A stretch of DNA of 64,000 nt from Escherichia phage vB_EcoM_ESCO32, in the sequence record OM386658.1. The stretch is one strand, 5' to 3'. Shown here piece by piece: positions 12,731 to 22,104 of the stretch (the first letter of the stretch is position 1; each line of letters opens with the position of its first letter). The notes beneath the pieces are model-generated. The model had not been told where the DNA came from. It searched no databases and worked only from the letters and a program-made list of their open reading frames with translations. The translations under genes and the position numbers were made by a program.

Positions 12731-13387
12731 ATGACTGTTAAGCATATTTCTTTTGATGTATGGAATACTCTTATTACTGCTAATCCTTTGTATGCAGAAG
12801 AACGCAACAAGGTTATTGCCGAGTATGCCTCTTGTTCTGAGGTAGAAGCAACTACCGTATATAAAGAGGTAAAAACTCTCCTGGATTTAAAAGCAGAAAA
12901 AGGTATTTGTGGAACATCTAGGCATGCTTGGGAAACACTTTCTGCTCATTTGAACATTGATCTTGATAAGGTGGATGGGTTAAAAAGAGACTGTTTAGCA
13001 ATGTTTATAAAACATCCTCCAACATTAAACCCTGAACTTTGCAAGAAGTTGGAAGAGCTAAGTTCAACCTATTCTTTGAGTATTAAAAGCAATACTAATT
13101 TTGTACCTGGTAGTTTTTTAGCTGTATATTCTGGCTTGACAAAATTACCATTCGACTTTATGCATTTTTCTGACGAGTTTTGCTTGTGTAAACCAGATCC
13201 TAGGTTTTTTAAACTCTCTTTTGATGAAATGGTAACGTTTGATCTCGCACCAGAGGAGATCTTACACGTTGGAGATAGTTTGATCTATGATGGAAAAGCT
13301 GTTGACATAGGGATGAAGTTCTGTCATATTATTAATCCAGAAGACTTGTTGGCTAAACTTAAAAAAGAGGAACTTATTAATGCGTAA
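12731..13387 (+). CDS. HAD-superfamily hydrolase (phosphatase-like)
   Basis: Motif I-like ISFDVWNTLI (second Asp replaced by Trp); CKPDPRFF (conserved Lys block); VGDSLIYDGKAVD (motif IV-like). Start taken as MTVKH at 12731. Confidence 0.5.
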   Translation: MTVKHISFDVWNTLITANPLYAEERNKVIAEYASCSEVEATTVYKEVKTLLDLKAEKGICGTSRHAWETLSAHLNIDLDKVDGLKRDCLAMFIKHPPTLNPELCKKLEELSSTYSLSIKSNTNFVPGSFLAVYSGLTKLPFDFMHFSDEFCLCKPDPRFFKLSFDEMVTFDLAPEEILHVGDSLIYDGKAVDIGMKFCHIINPEDLLAKLKKEELINA

Positions 13388-14237
13388 TCAAATTCAACAT
13401 TTTGCTAATACTTTTACTAACCTGAAGGAAGCAAAATTTAACATTGCAGATTATTCCAAGCTAAAGTTTGGTAGTAACCAGGCAGCAAAAAGAATGGGGC
13501 GCATTCTGGCTGAAAGTTTCTTTTCCAAGTATGAAGAACGACTGGTAAATGAAAGTTTTGTTGTTATTCCATCTCCATATAACTATGTGAAAAATGCAGC
13601 TACAGTGTTATCTGAACATTTTGTAGATCACCTCAACTACCTAATCTCTATCAAAGGAGGTAAAGCAGTGGAGTGGGATATCGTTCATCGTAAAGTGAGC
13701 TATATCAATGATTATGGATTTCTTAGCAAAGAAGATCGTAAGGCTTTGATCGATGGTGACACTTTCTCTATCAATCGTGATTTCTGGGGTAATAAAACTC
13801 TGATTTTCATTGATGATGTTAATATTACAGGAACGCACGAAGAAAAACTTATTGAAATTTTAGACAAAGAAGGTGTTGAAAACGATACGTTTTTCCTGTA
13901 CTTTGCAAAGTATGAAGGTACAGAAGCCAATACCGAAGCTGCACTTAACTTCAACTATATCAATAACCTGGCAGCTTTTATTAAAATGATTAAACAAGAA
14001 ACTGATGCTAAATGTTTGGTTCGTCCTATTAAGTATCTAATGAGTCAAAGCGAAGTTGATTTTAAAATTGCACTTTCACAGCTTCCTTTGTATTATGTAG
14101 AACAACTGTTCTTTGGTTGCCTTGCAGAAGGCTACAATAACATTGAAAAATATAAAGAGAACTTTGATTTCCTACGTCAATTTTTTGAAAGCAACATTAT
14201 CAACAAATCTAATGTTAAAGGGGATTATTATGTCTAA
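13380..14237 (+). CDS. phosphoribosyltransferase-like protein
   Basis: PRPP-binding loop signature LIFIDDVNITGTHEE (hhhhDDxxTTG-like) about two-thirds into a 285 aa protein; overlaps the upstream stop. Confidence 0.45.
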   Translation: MRNQIQHFANTFTNLKEAKFNIADYSKLKFGSNQAAKRMGRILAESFFSKYEERLVNESFVVIPSPYNYVKNAATVLSEHFVDHLNYLISIKGGKAVEWDIVHRKVSYINDYGFLSKEDRKALIDGDTFSINRDFWGNKTLIFIDDVNITGTHEEKLIEILDKEGVENDTFFLYFAKYEGTEANTEAALNFNYINNLAAFIKMIKQETDAKCLVRPIKYLMSQSEVDFKIALSQLPLYYVEQLFFGCLAEGYNNIEKYKENFDFLRQFFESNIINKSNVKGDYYV

Positions 14238-14946
14238 TAAAGTAATGACTTTCGGAGATCCTATCACCAATATTACAGAAAAAGATTTTGGGCGTGTAGC
14301 AACAGATAAAGATGGTGTCTTAAGAATTCGTGTACAAGGTATTACAGCACAGGATGAATATGCTGTGTATGTTTCAGGTCTTAACTATATTGATGATCGC
14401 ATTACACAAAACTTTGCACTGATCGGTGGTGTAGAGAAAATGTATTGGGAAGATGAAATTGTAACAAGTTATCCGGCAGGTATCATTGAGGTATACGGTG
14501 ATCTTTTAGCAGCAGCCGAGAGAGGCGATATAGACGCTATAGCACACTGCTGTAACTGTTTTTGCACTATGGGTAGTGGTATTGCACCAAAAATTAAAAG
14601 CAAGTGGCCTGGTGCGTTTAAAGCAGATTGTGCCACTAAACGTGGTGATTATAAAAAATTAGGTACGTTTACCAAATATATAGAAAACAATTTGACAATT
14701 TATAATTTATATGGACAATATGGTTATAGTCGTCGTGAGGAAGGTAAGCGTGACCTGAATTATGAAGCTATCTACAATGCGTTAGATAGTATGGGAGACG
14801 ATGTTGTATCTTCAGGCGGTAAAATTGTAGGTTTACCAATGCTTGGTTGTGGTTTGGCTGGAGGTTCTTGGAGTATTGTAAAACTTATGATCGAAGAAAC
14901 TCTAGTAAACAAAGGTTTAAATGTAATTGTTTACAAACTGAAATAA
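14230..14946 (+). CDS. macro-domain protein (TARG1/OARD1-like ADP-ribose hydrolase fold) with unknown N-terminal domain
   Basis: C-terminal 140 aa align by eye to TARG1/OARD1: YGDLLAAAERGDIDAIAHCCNCFCTMGSGIAPKIKSKWPGAF ... GLPMLGCGLAGGSWSIVKLMIEE versus GDLF..D.LAHC.S.DC.MGAGIA..FK.KF / MPRIGCGLD.L.W..V..MIEE. Confidence 0.55.
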   Translation: MSNKVMTFGDPITNITEKDFGRVATDKDGVLRIRVQGITAQDEYAVYVSGLNYIDDRITQNFALIGGVEKMYWEDEIVTSYPAGIIEVYGDLLAAAERGDIDAIAHCCNCFCTMGSGIAPKIKSKWPGAFKADCATKRGDYKKLGTFTKYIENNLTIYNLYGQYGYSRREEGKRDLNYEAIYNALDSMGDDVVSSGGKIVGLPMLGCGLAGGSWSIVKLMIEETLVNKGLNVIVYKLK

Positions 14947-14955
14947 GGAGAAAGT

Positions 14956-15162
14956 ATGGCAGGTGTTTTAGCAGTATTAGGTTGTTTTATTGTTGTGTTT
15001 TTGATTGTGTTAATCCCTAGTTGGCTACTGCTTTTAGCATACAACTATATGATTGACATTATCGGCTTAGACTGGCATCATGTTCCTGTAACGTTTTGGA
15101 GTGTAGTCTGTGTGACGTTCATTCTTGCGGTACTTCGTGGTATCTTTCAATCTAACAAATAA
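14956..15162 (+). CDS. small membrane protein (hypothetical)
   Basis: 68 aa, two hydrophobic helices; aaggagaaagt RBS. Confidence 0.35.
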   Translation: MAGVLAVLGCFIVVFLIVLIPSWLLLLAYNYMIDIIGLDWHHVPVTFWSVVCVTFILAVLRGIFQSNK

Positions 15163-15176
15163 GAGAGGATTTTTAT

Positions 15177-15425
15177 ATGCGTAAAGTAAATGTTGAAGTG
15201 CTTGAAAAATTTAGAAACACTCGTGATTGTACTATCGGCAAGGTTTACGAGGCTATTCTCCTTGAAGATGGAGATCAAGTTCCTGCCCCGTATCACGCCT
15301 TTAATGGTCAAATCAGCAAAGTGGAAGGTGGTCTTGCTATTTGCTTTATTGATGACGTAGGTGATGCTGTAGCTTTCCCTGTCATTAACAAAGAAGATAA
15401 ACTTAAAATTACAGAACTGAACTAG
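15177..15425 (+). CDS. hypothetical protein
   Basis: 82 aa ORF with gagagga RBS. Confidence 0.35.
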   Translation: MRKVNVEVLEKFRNTRDCTIGKVYEAILLEDGDQVPAPYHAFNGQISKVEGGLAICFIDDVGDAVAFPVINKEDKLKITELN

Positions 15426-21403: not shown

Positions 21404-21410
21404 AAAACGC

Positions 21411-21438
21411 TTGACTTTGTAGAAAAGATTAGTAAAAT
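21411..21438 (+). promoter_or_regulatory. sigma70-like promoter candidate upstream of the TerD-like gene
   Basis: TTGACT (21411-21416), 16 nt spacer, TAAAAT (21433-21438); about 37 nt upstream of the aaaggagataat RBS. Confidence 0.4.
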
Positions 21439-21475
21439 AGACAACGTAAATTAACAACAAAGGAGATAATAAATT

Positions 21476-22072
21476 ATGACTCAGAAAATTTCCCTGAAAA
21501 AAGGTTCTAGCGAAAAAGTTTCTCTGAAAAAGATTGCACCAGCACTGAAACGCATTCGTCTGGAATTCTCTTGGAAATCTAACGAAAAACTGGATCTGGA
21601 TGTTAGTGCTCTGATTTGCCGACACAATGCATCTGGTCTGCCGGAACTGTTGTCTCCTCGCCACCTGGTATGCTACGCACAGAAATTTGATCCTGAACGT
21701 TCTACTTTTGCAGGTGAAGATGTTCGTGACGGTGTAGGACAAATGGAGCAGATTGATGTTACACTGGATAATATCTCTGCTGAAGCACAGGAAATTGCAT
21801 TCGTAATCACTATTGATGACGAAACGGGTAAGAAACGCCTTGGTCACGCTACCGAAGGTTTCCTTAAAATCTTCGATGATGAACGTAACGTTGAACTGCT
21901 GGATTTTGACTTCTTGGCTCCAGAACTTGCAGGTAATACCATTTGCCACGTTGCCTCCCTGGTGCGGGAAGATAGCGAATGGAAACTGAAAGCATATGGT
22001 GTAGGTAAAGCTGGACTTGACATTTATGATGTAGTTAAAGCGTTTGGCGCTGGCGACGATTGGTTCGAGTAA
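21476..22072 (+). CDS. TerD-domain protein (tellurite resistance / stress protein family)
   Basis: MTQKISLKKGSSEKVSLKK N-terminal repeat, LDLDVSALIC, acidic clusters (GEDVRDGVG, ITIDDETG) and the general layout of a 190-200 aa TerD domain. Confidence 0.65.
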   Translation: MTQKISLKKGSSEKVSLKKIAPALKRIRLEFSWKSNEKLDLDVSALICRHNASGLPELLSPRHLVCYAQKFDPERSTFAGEDVRDGVGQMEQIDVTLDNISAEAQEIAFVITIDDETGKKRLGHATEGFLKIFDDERNVELLDFDFLAPELAGNTICHVASLVREDSEWKLKAYGVGKAGLDIYDVVKAFGAGDDWFE

Positions 22073-22081
22073 TAAATCATA

Positions 22082-22104
22082 GCGCCCTTCTGGGCGCATA
22101 TTTT
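22082..22104 (+). terminator. intrinsic terminator
   Basis: gcgccc-ttct-gggcgc followed by atatttt. Confidence 0.55.

What the first reader, a model, noticed from the sequence alone, without database searches (positions are those of the whole stretch)
12731..22104. Phage-borne Ter-like gene set (TerC, TelA-like, vWA, TerD) beside HAD, phosphoribosyltransferase and macro-domain genes
In under 10 kb the plus strand encodes a HAD hydrolase (12731-13387), a phosphoribosyltransferase-like protein (13380-14237), a macro-domain protein (14230-14946), a TerC-family membrane protein (15503-16480), a lipoprotein, a TelA-like helical protein (18259-19362), a vWA/MIDAS protein (20609-21403) and a TerD-domain protein (21476-22072). 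Sigma70-like promoters (15426, 21411) and terminators (16487, 22082) frame them as separate units. In bacteria, ter operons (TerD/TerC/TelA/vWA) are genomically linked to PRTase and HAD phosphatase genes and are thought to make a nucleoside-like metabolite tied to stress or phage resistance. Finding the full combination on a lytic-phage early region suggests the phage carries its own version, perhaps to manipulate the host or counter a host Ter-type defence. The exact combination with a macro domain and no TerB is not one I recognise.
Basis: partly seen in the sequence, partly recalled or inferred. Interest (0 to 1): 0.8.

Follow-up and report, generated by a model that had tools for sequence, protein, structure and literature searches.

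The report
Phage Ter stress-gene cluster, already catalogued
A phi92-like E. coli phage really does carry its own tellurite-resistance-type membrane gene set next to a small nucleotide-making enzyme pair, but these genes are already annotated in near-identical phages, comparable clusters in other phages are in the literature, and their function is still untested.

Summary
Every domain call holds: HAD, PRTase_3, macro, TerC, TelA, TerF-type vWA and TerD. The window is 99% identical to phi92-like coliphages (Justusliebigvirus), whose records already name most of these genes. Phage Ter systems with PRTase and HAD enzymes were described by Iyer et al. 2021, so this is not new.

The cluster resolves into three parts.
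- **Ter core:** TerC/Alx, TelA, vWA and TerD, interleaved with a lipoprotein and small membrane proteins.
- **HAD–PRTase_3 pair:** the two genes overlap. HAD sits beside PRTase_3 in 21 of 22 lineages. Nine lineages have Ter genes within 10 kb; the rest, including rhizobial replicons, have none.
- **Macrodomain:** SCO6735/TARG1/DarG class, adjacent only in this phage subfamily. It is more likely an ADP-ribosylation eraser than a Ter component.

The set differs from the enterobacterial ter locus. It lacks TerB, ATP-grasp, StiP and the C-C lyase, and uses another PRTase family. The HAD lacks the Asp+2 general acid (invariant Trp), so "phosphatase" is unsafe.

My best guess is an envelope and cation-homeostasis or superinfection-exclusion module transcribed from sigma70-type promoters. 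This is inferred, not shown. The idea that it counters host Ter defence has no support.

The parts
12731..13387 (+). HAD-IA fold hydrolase (phi92 gp187). Motif I is D-V-W-N-T, so the Asp+2 general acid is replaced by an invariant Trp.
13380..14237 (+). PRTase_3 (ComF-like type I phosphoribosyltransferase, gp186). Its start overlaps the HAD stop by 8 nt.
14230..14946 (+). Macrodomain protein (gp185). It has an N-terminal extension of about 85 aa and a SCO6735/TARG1/DarG-class macro domain. Its start overlaps the PRTase stop by 8 nt.
   Evidence: PF01661, 1e-6. PADLOC DarG 3.5e-13. NCBIfam antitoxin_DarG 8e-13, far below cut-off. PDB hits: 5e3b SCO6735 5e-16, TARG1 4e-10, DarG 1e-3.
14956..15425 (+). 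Two small ORFs (gp184, a hydrophobic 68-aa protein, and gp183, 82 aa) that close the first predicted unit.
   Evidence: ORFs; annotated in Paula and PaulScherrer; no Pfam match. Homologues of the first occur in Stephanstirmvirinae loci.
15426..15453 (+). Sigma70-like promoter (TTGACT-16-TATAGT) upstream of TerC.
   Evidence: The -35 and -10 elements are conserved across window, phAPEC8, L012 and L013. phAPEC8 annotates a host-dependent promoter at the same place.
15466..15484 (+). Conserved stem-loop in the TerC 5' leader (GCGGAGGA-TTG-TCCTCCGC), just before the Shine-Dalgarno sequence.
   Evidence: 95% of cells are paired and 5 of 8 pairs show compensatory changes across 4 lineages, with 0/500 shuffles reaching the covariation score.
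15503..16480 (+). TerC/Alx-subfamily integral membrane protein (gp182).
   Evidence: PF03741, 1e-38. TIGR03718 323 bits against a cut-off of 246. 47.7% identical over 342 aa to the TerC of an enterobacterial ter operon.
16487..16509 (+). Terminator-like hairpin AGCCCC-TTCG-GGGGCT followed by TTTATTG.
   Evidence: Read from the sequence. The scan did not report it because the tail has only 4 T's.
16520..16726 (+). Small hydrophobic ORF (gp181, 68 aa).
   Evidence: Weak DUF6693 match at 2e-4, below cut-off. Conserved in Stephanstirmvirinae loci.
16713..17303 (+). Predicted lipoprotein (gp180). Signal peptide MKNIKSFIVAVVLGSALLVG|C with Asp at +2, which is the inner-membrane retention rule in E. 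coli. The mature part is Gly/Ser/Gln-rich.
   Evidence: Sequence (lipobox read by eye). phrog_21570. No Pfam match.
17339..18190 (+). gp179, 283-aa protein of unknown fold, kept between TerC and TelA in this subfamily.
   Evidence: No Pfam match. phrog_27504. Present in all Stephanstirmvirinae loci. No similarity to the equivalent L018 ORF.
18259..19362 (+). TelA-family helical protein (gp178).
   Evidence: PF05816, 5e-34, covering 13-330 of 332 profile positions. phrog_5890 'tellurite resistance'.
19376..20607 (+). Four small or unknown ORFs (gp177, gp176, gp175, gp174) between TelA and vWA.
   Evidence: No Pfam match. Homologues of most of them in Phapecoctavirus loci; gp175/gp174 not detected in L012/L013.
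20609..21403 (+). vWA domain of the TerF C-terminal type (gp173), with a D-I-S-G-S MIDAS motif and an internal insertion.
   Evidence: PF10138, 7e-39 in two stretches. The DxSxS motif was read from the sequence.
21411..21438 (+). Sigma70-like promoter (TTGACT-16-TAAAAT) upstream of TerD.
   Evidence: It lies in the 72-nt gap before TerD. phAPEC8 has only a 15-nt gap there.
21476..22072 (+). Single TerD-domain protein (gp172). DLD is kept, but the GDNxTGEGDGDDE calcium motif has degenerated to GEDVRDGVGQME.
   Evidence: PF02342, 5e-28. 2KXT at 9e-15 over the full length. Motif comparison with other phage TerDs.
22082..22097 (.). GC-rich hairpin GCGCCC-TTCT-GGGCGC, terminator-like on both strands.
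   Evidence: Its C-terminal half is 28% identical (E 4e-6) to the ORF between TerC and vWA in the compact Ter operon of contig L018. No Pfam match. No homologue detected in the two Phapecoctavirus loci L003/L015.

Best explanation
The region is a conserved accessory cluster of phi92-like (Stephanstirmvirinae) coliphages. It is built from separable modules.

**Module 1: Ter core.** It comprises a TerC/Alx-type cation-handling inner-membrane protein, TelA, a TerF-type vWA/MIDAS protein and one TerD protein. A predicted inner-membrane lipoprotein and several tiny membrane proteins accompany them.

**Module 2: enzyme pair.** A HAD-fold enzyme and a PRTase_3 enzyme have overlapping genes. The pair most likely converts PRPP plus an unknown base into a ribosylated small molecule.

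**Proposed function (inferred).** Host RNA polymerase transcribes the units from sigma70-type promoters. The Ter core then assembles at the inner membrane and changes envelope and divalent-cation physiology. This would keep the infected cell productive and less permeable to competitors: superinfecting phage DNA, pore-forming colicins and membrane stress. It mirrors the phage-inhibition and colicin-resistance phenotypes of bacterial ter operons. The HAD-PRTase product would be a ligand or signal for that complex.

**Macrodomain.** It is a lineage-specific add-on. It most likely removes ADP-ribose from nucleic acid or protein, as a counter-measure to DarT-type toxins.

**What is shown and what is inferred.** Shown: domain identities, folds, motif states, synteny and statistical linkage. 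Inferred: timing, localisation, complex formation, the metabolite, and the exclusion or protection phenotype.
For: **Identities and folds:**

**Synteny:** the order is kept across three Stephanstirmvirinae groups.

**Recurrent linkage:**
- HAD sits beside PRTase_3 in 21 of 22 lineages defined at 70% PRTase identity.
- Nine of the 22 have at least two Ter families within 10 kb, in different gene orders. The binomial p is about 7e-18 against the 0.3% of phage records with a TerD hit.
- Contig L018 carries a compact operon: TerC, gp171-like, vWA, TerD, TerD, x, TelA, HAD, PRTase_3, SPFH/Band7.
- A minimal four-gene operon (TelA, vWA, TerC-like, TerD) occurs in Caulobacter phage CcrPW.

**Membrane theme:** TerC, a lipoprotein with an Asp+2 retention signal, small hydrophobic ORFs, an SPFH neighbour, and a P-type cation ATPase or an OmpA-family gene next to the pair in Bacteroidetes MAGs.

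**Transcription:** the conserved sigma70-type promoter and leader hairpin at TerC.

**Bacterial precedent:** insertions in terZ, terC and terD abolish phage inhibition and colicin resistance, and a K. pneumoniae terC deletion lowers phage, Zn, Mn and Te resistance (PMC12054061).

**Same proposal in the literature:** Iyer et al. 2021 suggested superinfection competition for jumbo-phage Ter systems.

**Macrodomain:** its nearest solved relative, SCO6735, cleaves thymidine-linked DNA ADP-ribose.
Against: - No experiment on any phage Ter gene was found.
- The TerD calcium motif is degenerate in this subfamily, so Ca2+ sensing cannot be assumed.
- TerB and all but one TerD paralogue are missing.
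- The HAD lacks the Asp+2 general acid/base, so 'PRTase then phosphatase gives a nucleoside' may be wrong.
- The HAD-PRTase pair stands alone in 12 of 22 lineages, including rhizobial plasmids and chromosomes with no Ter genes nearby. TerD hits were not among the leading organism groups for Rhizobium or Brevundimonas phages. The pair therefore does not need Ter proteins.
- Promoter-like sites are no more frequent than in shuffled sequence, and 'early' timing is not measured.
Confidence: 0.45

Rival explanations
1. Two or three unrelated functions happen to sit side by side. The HAD-PRTase_3(-macro) unit would be a nucleotide/NAD/ADP-ribose-centred counter-defence or nucleotide-salvage unit. 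It would work on its own and have nothing to do with the Ter membrane proteins.
For: - Separate predicted transcription units, with a promoter at 15426 and terminators at 12330, 16487 and 22082.
- The pair occurs alone in 12 of 22 lineages and on Rhizobium plasmid pRL10.
- In Caulobacter phages the pair and the Ter operon are more than 14 kb apart.
- In two lineages a nucleotidyltransferase of the NMN-adenylyltransferase type follows the pair directly.
- The macrodomain is of the SCO6735/DarG class.
Against: - Nine of 22 lineages place the pair within 10 kb of at least two Ter families, in several different orders. One is a single compact operon. This is far above the background frequency.
- Two Bacteroidetes MAG contigs (bacterial or prophage) repeat the link with TerD and TerC.
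- PRTase_3 is not the NAMPT family used by the NARP1 and NARP2 NAD+ reconstitution pathways.
Confidence: 0.25
2. It is a metal-homeostasis auxiliary gene set. Phage TerC would export or chaperone Mn2+/Zn2+ (as Alx, MeeF/MeeY and K. pneumoniae TerC do), with TerD, vWA and TelA as metal-binding partners. This would tune metal supply for phage enzymes or for secreted proteins such as the neighbouring signal-peptide cell-wall hydrolase. It would not exclude competitors.
For: - TerC passes the TerC/Alx 'metal homeostasis' model cut-off and is 48% identical to ter-operon TerC.
- K. pneumoniae terC contributes to Zn and Mn resistance.
- The vWA protein has a MIDAS motif.
- A P-type cation ATPase sits next to the pair in L044.
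- A SleB-type hydrolase with a signal peptide follows the cluster both in the window and in L018.
Against: - There is no direct evidence for transport by the phage protein.
- The TerD metal motif is degenerate.
- It does not explain the linked PRTase/HAD enzymes.
- The same bacterial terC mutant also loses phage resistance, so the two readings are not exclusive.
Confidence: 0.2
3. The phage copies would act as decoys or antagonists of a host Ter-type defence.
For: Only the general fact that bacterial ter operons inhibit some phages.
Against: - The usual hosts, including K-12, are not known to carry a ter operon (background knowledge, not tested here).
- Phage TerD is at most 32% identical to plasmid TerDs.
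- The set is conserved in phages of very different hosts such as Caulobacter and Klebsiella, and in unassigned metagenomic phage contigs.
- The phage set lacks TerB and the host-type biosynthetic enzymes.
Confidence: 0.05
4. It is a chance collection of unrelated 'moron' genes with no joint function.
For: Eight unknown ORFs are interleaved among the Ter genes. The AAA ATPase upstream is absent from phAPEC8.
Against: The same four Ter families co-occur in many unrelated phages and in bacteria. The order is conserved between genera whose PRTases are 65% identical.
Confidence: 0.05

Closest known systems
Phage-borne Ter systems described by Iyer, Anantharaman, Krishnan, Burroughs and Aravind 2021 (Viruses 13:63): Acinetobacter phage vB_AbaM_ME3 and Caulobacter jumbo phages
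   Same: The families are the same: TerD, TerC, TerF-type vWA and TelA, with PRTase and HAD 'signal biosynthesis' enzymes in the fuller versions. That paper says 'certain other related smaller tailed phages' also have them. I confirmed the CcrPW four-gene operon.
   Different: - Here the Ter genes are spread over 6.6 kb with eight extra ORFs.
- The pair is 1.3 kb upstream of TerC rather than elsewhere in the genome.
- A macrodomain gene overlaps the PRTase gene.
- I did not examine ME3 itself.
Enterobacterial ter locus: terZABCDE(F) plus a divergent biosynthetic cluster, e.g. Chimaeribacter plasmid p353 (locus L047); IncHI2 R478 and E. coli O157 are of the same type (from memory)
   Same: It has TerC (48% identical) and TerD-family proteins. 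A PRTase and a HAD-fold protein are encoded next to them.
   Different: - The bacterial locus has five TerD-family genes (TerZ, A, D, E) and TerB. Its PRTase is PRTase_2-TRSP and its HAD is type IIB-like. It also has ATPgrasp_Ter, StiP-PELOTA and the C-C lyase. No TelA or vWA gene is annotated in the stretch shown.
- The phage has one TerD, no TerB, TelA and vWA, PRTase_3 and a type IA HAD. It has none of the other enzymes.
Bacillus subtilis yceCDEFGH operon (TerD paralogues, TerC-family YceF/MeeF, YceG, TelA-like YceH). This comparison is from memory and was not tested here.
   Same: It is a TerD + TerC + TelA set without TerB, with an unknown protein between TerC and TelA.
   Different: It has three TerD paralogues and, as far as I recall, no vWA, no PRTase/HAD pair and no macrodomain.
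Klebsiella phage phiKp34 cluster (PMC8386662)
   Same: It is a virulent phage carrying terC, a terF-type vWA, terD (two copies) and telA, interpreted as a possible anti-viral function.
   Different: No PRTase/HAD is mentioned. It is a different phage group with two TerD genes.
SCO6735 / TARG1 / DarG macrodomain class
   Same: These are the best sequence matches of the phage macrodomain. The phage shares the GCGLAGGxW segment with SCO6735 and BT1257. SCO6735 removes thymidine-linked ADP-ribose from DNA (PMC9411070).
   Different: - The phage protein has an extra N-terminal region of about 85 aa.
- It lacks DarG's C-terminal DarT-binding half (48 bits against a cut-off of 250).
- It is not next to a DarT gene.
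NARP1/NARP2 phage NAD+ reconstitution pathways (Osterman et al., bioRxiv 10.1101/2024.02.11.579819)
   Same: Each is a two-gene phage enzyme unit built around a phosphoribosyltransferase, and both were found in BASEL-collection coliphages.
   Different: NARP uses a NAMPT-family (PF04095) enzyme with a Prs-like kinase or an NMNAT. Here the enzyme is a type I ComF-like PRTase_3 paired with a HAD protein.

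Membership tests
Ter stress-response core (TerC/TerD/TelA/vWA hub of Anantharaman, Iyer and Aravind 2012) | TerD-domain protein | tested here: met
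   PF02342, 5e-28. Full-length match to 2KXT and 3IBZ.
Ter stress-response core (TerC/TerD/TelA/vWA hub of Anantharaman, Iyer and Aravind 2012) | TerC-family integral membrane protein | tested here: met
   PF03741, 1e-38. TIGR03718 above cut-off. 47.7% identity to ter-operon TerC.
Ter stress-response core (TerC/TerD/TelA/vWA hub of Anantharaman, Iyer and Aravind 2012) | TelA-family protein | tested here: met
   PF05816, 5e-34, nearly full profile coverage.
Ter stress-response core (TerC/TerD/TelA/vWA hub of Anantharaman, Iyer and Aravind 2012) | TerF/TerY-type vWA domain with MIDAS motif | tested here: met
   PF10138, 7e-39. D-I-S-G-S motif in the sequence.
Ter stress-response core (TerC/TerD/TelA/vWA hub of Anantharaman, Iyer and Aravind 2012) | The genes recur together in unrelated genomes | tested here: met
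Ter stress-response core (TerC/TerD/TelA/vWA hub of Anantharaman, Iyer and Aravind 2012) | Intact TerD Ca2+-binding motif (GDNxTGEGDGDDE) | tested here: inconclusive
   DLD is kept, but the second motif is GEDVRDGVGQME in this subfamily. Other phage TerDs keep the canonical form.
Ter stress-response core (TerC/TerD/TelA/vWA hub of Anantharaman, Iyer and Aravind 2012) | Tellurite, phage or colicin resistance phenotype | not testable with these tools
   Needs expression or deletion experiments.
Enterobacterial terZABCDEF operon | TerB protein | tested here: not met
   No Pfam TerB among the cluster ORFs. phmmer with a plasmid TerB against all window ORFs found nothing at E<=0.1.
Enterobacterial terZABCDEF operon | Several TerD paralogues (TerZ, TerA, TerD, TerE, TerF) | tested here: not met
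   TerZ, TerD and TerE queries all hit the same single ORF; TerA hit none.
Enterobacterial terZABCDEF operon | Close sequence relationship, i.e. recent transfer from the host | tested here: not met
   TerD is at most 32% identical to any of 2334 plasmid records. TerC is 48% identical.
Ter-linked 'nucleoside-like metabolite' biosynthetic module | Phosphoribosyltransferase with an intact PRPP-binding loop | tested here: met
   PRTase_3, 1e-41. DDVxITGTHE invariant. Type I PRTase fold. The family differs from the PRTase_2-TRSP of the enterobacterial locus.
Ter-linked 'nucleoside-like metabolite' biosynthetic module | HAD-fold phosphoesterase next to the PRTase | tested here: inconclusive
   Fold and adjacency are met. 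The nucleophile Asp, the motif II Ser, the motif III Lys and the motif IV acidic residues are conserved. The Asp+2 general acid/base is an invariant Trp, so phosphatase activity is unproven.
Ter-linked 'nucleoside-like metabolite' biosynthetic module | ATPgrasp_Ter, StiP-PELOTA and C-C bond lyase enzymes | tested here: not met
   They are present in reference locus L047. No homologue occurs in the window at E<=0.1.
DarG / TARG1-class ADP-ribosyl hydrolase macrodomains | Macrodomain of this class by sequence | tested here: met
   PADLOC DarG 3.5e-13. PDB SCO6735 5e-16, TARG1 4e-10, DarG 1e-3.
DarG / TARG1-class ADP-ribosyl hydrolase macrodomains | DarG antitoxin architecture (C-terminal DarT-binding domain and an adjacent darT gene) | tested here: not met
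   NCBIfam antitoxin_DarG scores 48 bits against a cut-off of 250, and only profile positions 4-147 of 338 match. No ORF in the cluster matched a DarT (ADP-ribosyltransferase) family in Pfam or PADLOC.
DarG / TARG1-class ADP-ribosyl hydrolase macrodomains | TARG1 catalytic Lys84/Asp125 dyad | tested here: inconclusive
   The Asp125 position reads Ala (GCGLAGGSW), as in SCO6735 and BT1257 (TARG1 numbering is from memory). The Lys position could not be aligned with confidence.
NARP1/NARP2 NAD+ reconstitution | NAMPT-family (PF04095) transferase with a Prs-like or NMNAT partner | tested here: not met
   The PRTase is PF15610 only. The NARP enzymes are as described.

The most novel reading that the evidence does not exclude
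The overlapping HAD-PRTase_3 gene pair is an autonomous two-enzyme module carried by mobile elements. It is found in phages of many hosts, in rhizobial replicons and only rarely elsewhere.

Its chemistry may not be 'make a nucleotide, then dephosphorylate it'. The HAD partner has an invariant Trp where phosphatases have the Asp+2 general acid. In two lineages an NMNAT-like nucleotidyltransferase follows the pair.

The module might therefore make a previously undescribed ribosylated or dinucleotide-type small molecule. Phages would use it as a signal, an antimetabolite or an immune antagonist. The Ter membrane proteins would be its optional receptor or exporter.
Probability: 0.15. Interest if true: 0.7.

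Novelty: already known. Interest (0 to 1): 0.3.

Why it matters
The function of Ter proteins has been unclear since the 1990s, in bacteria as well as in phages. This cluster offers a tractable model. It is a minimal set (one TerD, TerC, TelA, vWA and a two-enzyme pair) in lytic phages that grow on E. coli K-12, such as BASEL phages PaulScherrer and JohannJBalmer.

Deleting or expressing these few genes could show three things:
- whether Ter proteins exclude competing phages or manage metals;
- what molecule the PRTase/HAD pair makes;
- whether the macrodomain defeats DarT-type DNA ADP-ribosylation.

As a discovery it adds little. The genes are annotated in dozens of deposited genomes, and the concept of phage Ter systems is published.

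Tried and rejected
- **Riboswitch upstream of TerC.** Bacterial TerC genes often have a Mn2+ riboswitch. Rfam found nothing in the window and the leader is only about 50 nt. There is a conserved simple hairpin instead.
- **NARP1/NARP2 NAD+ reconstitution.** Rejected because the PRTase family is different.
- **Recent capture from host ter operons.** Rejected. TerD is at most 32% identical to plasmid TerDs. None of the 17 plasmid records with a PRTase_3 hit was enterobacterial; they were Rhizobium, Sinorhizobium and Hymenobacter.
- **'Campylobacter phage' hits as evidence of wide host range.** Rejected. Those records are about 146 kb, and their PRTase or TerD is 100% identical to the coliphage protein. 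Their host labels are doubtful.
- **AAA ATPase at 11163-12323 as a MoxR-like partner of the vWA protein.** Not supported. The AAA match is only generic, and the gene is absent from Phapecoctavirus loci that keep the rest.
- **Homologue search for gp171.** It returned only proteins at least 94% identical, so no useful alignment or model could be made.
- **gp179 against the L018 ORF in the equivalent position.** No similarity.
- **Anantharaman et al. 2012.** The paper could not be read because it is not held. Statements about it rest on citing papers and on memory.
- **Literature on PRTase_3.** A search for PF15610 found nothing.

Full report
**1. What the window is**

The 9.4-kb region is 98-99% identical over its full length to more than 50 Escherichia phages of the genus Justusliebigvirus (subfamily Stephanstirmvirinae, phi92-like). 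Examples are outra, ESCO8, Paula and the BASEL phage PaulScherrer.

In those records the genes correspond to phi92 gp187 to gp172. Depending on the submitter, they are named hydrolase/HAD, (orotate) phosphoribosyltransferase, phosphatase/macrodomain protein, membrane-bound tellurium resistance protein/TerC, toxic-anion resistance protein, and stress protein.

Upstream lie class III ribonucleotide reductase genes (NrdD/NrdG) and an AAA ATPase. Downstream lie a SleB-type cell-wall hydrolase and two glycosyltransferases.

**2.

All ORFs exist as described. Pfam gives:
- HAD: 28 bits, just above the cut-off.
- PRTase_3: 1e-41.
- Macro: 1e-6.
- TerC: 1e-38.
- TelA: 5e-34.
- vWA-TerF-like: 7e-39.
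- TerD: 5e-28 (all).

I checked the weaker or more consequential calls independently.
- **TerD.** It aligns over its full length with the solved Klebsiella TerD.
- **TerC.** It passes the curated TerC/Alx model (323 against 246 bits). It is 47.7% identical to the TerC of an enterobacterial ter operon.
- **Lipoprotein.** It has a textbook signal peptide and an LVGC lipobox. Asp at +2 is the inner-membrane retention rule in E. coli (sequence; the rule is established knowledge).
- **TerB.** No TerB-like ORF exists anywhere in the window.

**3. Transcription signals**

Promoter-like hexamers are no more frequent than in shuffled sequence (42 found, 42 expected). Counts alone therefore say nothing.

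The site at 15426 (TTGACT-16-TATAGT) is different. It sits in the gap before TerC. Its -35 and -10 elements are conserved in phAPEC8 and in two further Stephanstirmvirinae contigs. phAPEC8 annotators placed a host-type promoter there.

Between this promoter and the Shine-Dalgarno sequence lies an 8-bp stem-loop. Its sequence differs between lineages but its pairing is kept: 5 of 8 pairs show compensatory changes and 95% of cells are paired. Slid controls give 52-65%. Only four lineages were compared, so this is suggestive.

The 21411 site lies in the 72-nt gap before TerD. Hairpins at 12330, 16487 and 22082 look like terminators.

Separate units are therefore plausible. Timing ('early') has not been measured.

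**4. Anatomy: three components, not one**

I collected 46 related loci from four kinds of source: annotated phages, IMG/VR contigs, metagenome and assembly contigs, and plasmids and bacterial genomes. I searched their six-frame ORFs iteratively with the window's proteins. I then grouped the loci into 22 lineages at 70% PRTase identity.

*The HAD-PRTase_3 pair*
- A HAD gene lies immediately upstream of PRTase_3 in 21 of 22 lineages, usually overlapping it by 1-32 nt.
- This holds in Xanthomonas jumbo phage XaC1, Rhizobium phages, Caulobacter phage CcrColossus and Rhizobium/Ensifer replicons.
- The pair is therefore a tight unit and is probably translationally coupled.

*Link between the pair and Ter genes*
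- Nine of 22 lineages have at least two Ter families within 10 kb of the pair, in different orders.
- The clearest case is contig L018: TerC, gp171-like, vWA, TerD, TerD, x, TelA, HAD, PRTase_3, SPFH/Band7.
- TerD hits occur in only 147 of 50,697 phage records, so this linkage is far above chance (p about 7e-18). The lineages are not fully independent.
- Twelve lineages have the pair with no Ter gene nearby, including all rhizobial copies.
- Caulobacter phages keep a compact TelA-vWA-TerC(DUF475)-TerD operon more than 14 kb from the pair.
- The two modules are thus functionally associated but separable.

*The macrodomain*
- It adjoins the pair only in Stephanstirmvirinae. phAPEC8 has a shorter, 157-aa version.
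- Its best relatives are SCO6735, BT1257, TARG1 and DarG.
- SCO6735 removes thymidine-linked ADP-ribose from DNA (PMC9411070).
- I read it as a lineage-specific addition with its own probable job: erasing ADP-ribosylation.
- The 8-nt overlap with the PRTase gene leaves open a role in processing a ribose-linked product.

*A possible further member*
- Its C-terminal half resembles the ORF between TerC and vWA in L018 (E 4e-6).

**5. How it differs from the host-type ter locus**

A reference enterobacterial locus encodes TerZ, TerA, TerB, TerC, TerD and TerE. It also has a divergent enzyme cluster: ATPgrasp_Ter, PRTase_2-TRSP, a type IIB-like HAD, StiP-PELOTA and a C-C bond lyase.

The phage differs in several ways.
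- It has one TerD and no TerB.
- It has TelA and a TerF-type vWA.
- It uses a different PRTase family (PRTase_3) and a different HAD subfamily (IA).
- It has none of the other enzymes.
- TerD is at most 32% identical to any plasmid TerD.
- None of the 17 plasmid records with a PRTase_3 hit was enterobacterial.

The phage set is thus an old, minimal, phage-adapted version of the Ter theme. It is not a recent copy of the host operon.

**6. A detail that matters for mechanism**

In the HAD protein, motif I reads D-V-W-N-T. The nucleophile Asp is conserved, as are the motif II Ser, the motif III Lys and the motif IV acidic residues.

The residue two positions after the nucleophile is the exception. 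In HAD phosphatases it is the general acid/base Asp. Here it is Trp in all 34 database homologues, and Trp or Tyr in the 18 locus-derived sequences. The best structural match, PH0253, shares the motif FDVWNTL. The closest curated models are uncharacterised IA subfamilies and haloacid dehalogenase type II, all far below cut-off.

The usual reading is 'PRTase makes a nucleotide, HAD dephosphorylates it to a nucleoside'. That reading is an assumption, not a result.

In two lineages an NMNAT-like nucleotidyltransferase directly follows the pair. This hints at a dinucleotide product. The evidence is thin.

**7. Most likely function**

I commit to the following, at moderate confidence. The Ter core is a membrane-associated complex made from host-type promoters. 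It alters envelope and divalent-cation physiology of the infected cell. The effect is to protect the infection and exclude competitors. The HAD-PRTase product serves as its ligand or signal.

Basis:
- The membrane character of the set: TerC, an inner-membrane lipoprotein, small hydrophobic proteins, and SPFH, cation-ATPase and OmpA-family neighbours in relatives.
- The bacterial phenotypes. Insertions in terZ, terC and terD abolish phage inhibition and colicin resistance. A K. pneumoniae terC deletion reduces resistance to phage, Zn, Mn and tellurite (PMC12054061).
- The same proposal by Iyer et al. 2021 for jumbo phages.

Nothing here is experimentally shown for a phage. The degenerate Ca2+ motif in this subfamily's TerD is a caution.

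The rivals are independent functions for the enzyme unit, a purely metal-homeostatic role, and antagonism of host Ter. They are scored separately. The last has no support.

**8. Novelty**

The gene set is annotated in phi92 and dozens of relatives. It was flagged by RAST in a 2015 phage-cocktail study (PMC4690881). It also fits a published description of phage Ter systems. It is therefore already known as an observation.

The following may be new, although I could not read the 2012 source paper:
- the autonomy and near-universal pairing of the HAD-PRTase_3 unit;
- its near-restriction to phages and rhizobial replicons, at 15 loci in about 100,000 species genomes by a motif-limited scan;
- the missing general acid in the HAD;
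- the lineage-specific macrodomain.

The interest lies in tractability rather than surprise.

Noticed in passing
window 15466-15484 (with the promoter at 15426-15453): There is an 8-bp stem-loop in the TerC mRNA leader. Its pairing is maintained by compensatory changes across four phage lineages while its sequence drifts. It may stabilise the mRNA or regulate translation. In phage Paula it is annotated only as a minus-strand terminator.
   Followed up: partly
window 12731-13387, residues 9-13 of the protein: HAD motif I is D-V-W-N-T. Trp replaces the Asp+2 general acid/base in all 34 database homologues, and the motif is shared with the uncharacterised archaeal protein PH0253 (PDB 2om6). The 'phosphatase' label in many phage annotations is therefore unproven.
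   Followed up: yes
window 24079-25338: Two adjacent glycosyltransferase-like genes. The second has a weak, sub-threshold match to TET-associated glycosyltransferase (PF20691, 3.9e-5). This raises the question of whether these phages glycosylate a modified DNA base.
   Followed up: no
window 22821-23330; L018 12208-12699: A SleB-type cell-wall hydrolase (PF07486) with an N-terminal signal peptide follows the Ter cluster both here and in the unrelated contig L018. phAPEC8 annotates it as the endolysin.
   Followed up: partly
window 11163-12323: A 386-aa AAA-type ATPase lies just upstream and ends at a strong terminator hairpin (12330-12351). It is present in Justusliebigvirus-like loci but absent from Phapecoctavirus, so it is probably not part of the cluster.
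   Followed up: partly
GenBank MG065639 and MG065645 ('Campylobacter phage A150/A145'), hits H27 and H70: These roughly 146-kb records, labelled as Campylobacter jejuni phages, encode PRTase or TerD proteins 100% identical to those of coliphages. The host label is likely wrong, or the phage came from a contaminating E. coli.
   Followed up: no
proteins P0170 and P0221 (homologues of window 22125-22727): Homologues of gp171 (96-98% identical) are recorded under Escherichia coli assemblies. One sits on a 146,940-bp contig, which is the size of a whole phage genome. These lytic-type phages therefore turn up inside bacterial genome assemblies, either as a carrier state or as contamination.
   Followed up: no
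L036 10904-11581, L042 10804-11580 and L034 10908-11588 (Ensifer/Sinorhizobium); L008 6115-6720: In Ensifer/Sinorhizobium genomes an ORF of about 226-259 aa directly follows the HAD-PRTase_3 pair; only the L036 copy was scanned and is ClpP-like. A ClpP-family gene also lies just upstream of the pair in a phage contig. The rhizobial copies may therefore sit in prophage-like elements.
   Followed up: no
L005 5857-6420; L023 10841-11923: In a Rhizobium phage and in an unrelated IMG/VR contig, the gene right after PRTase_3 is an NMN-adenylyltransferase/cytidylyltransferase-like nucleotidyltransferase. This hints that the PRTase product may be adenylylated in some lineages.
   Followed up: partly
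window, about 36000-38000: GC skew flips from positive to negative here. This is consistent with a switch in gene orientation between two large divergently or convergently transcribed blocks. There are no tRNA genes and no Rfam matches anywhere in the 64 kb.
   Followed up: no
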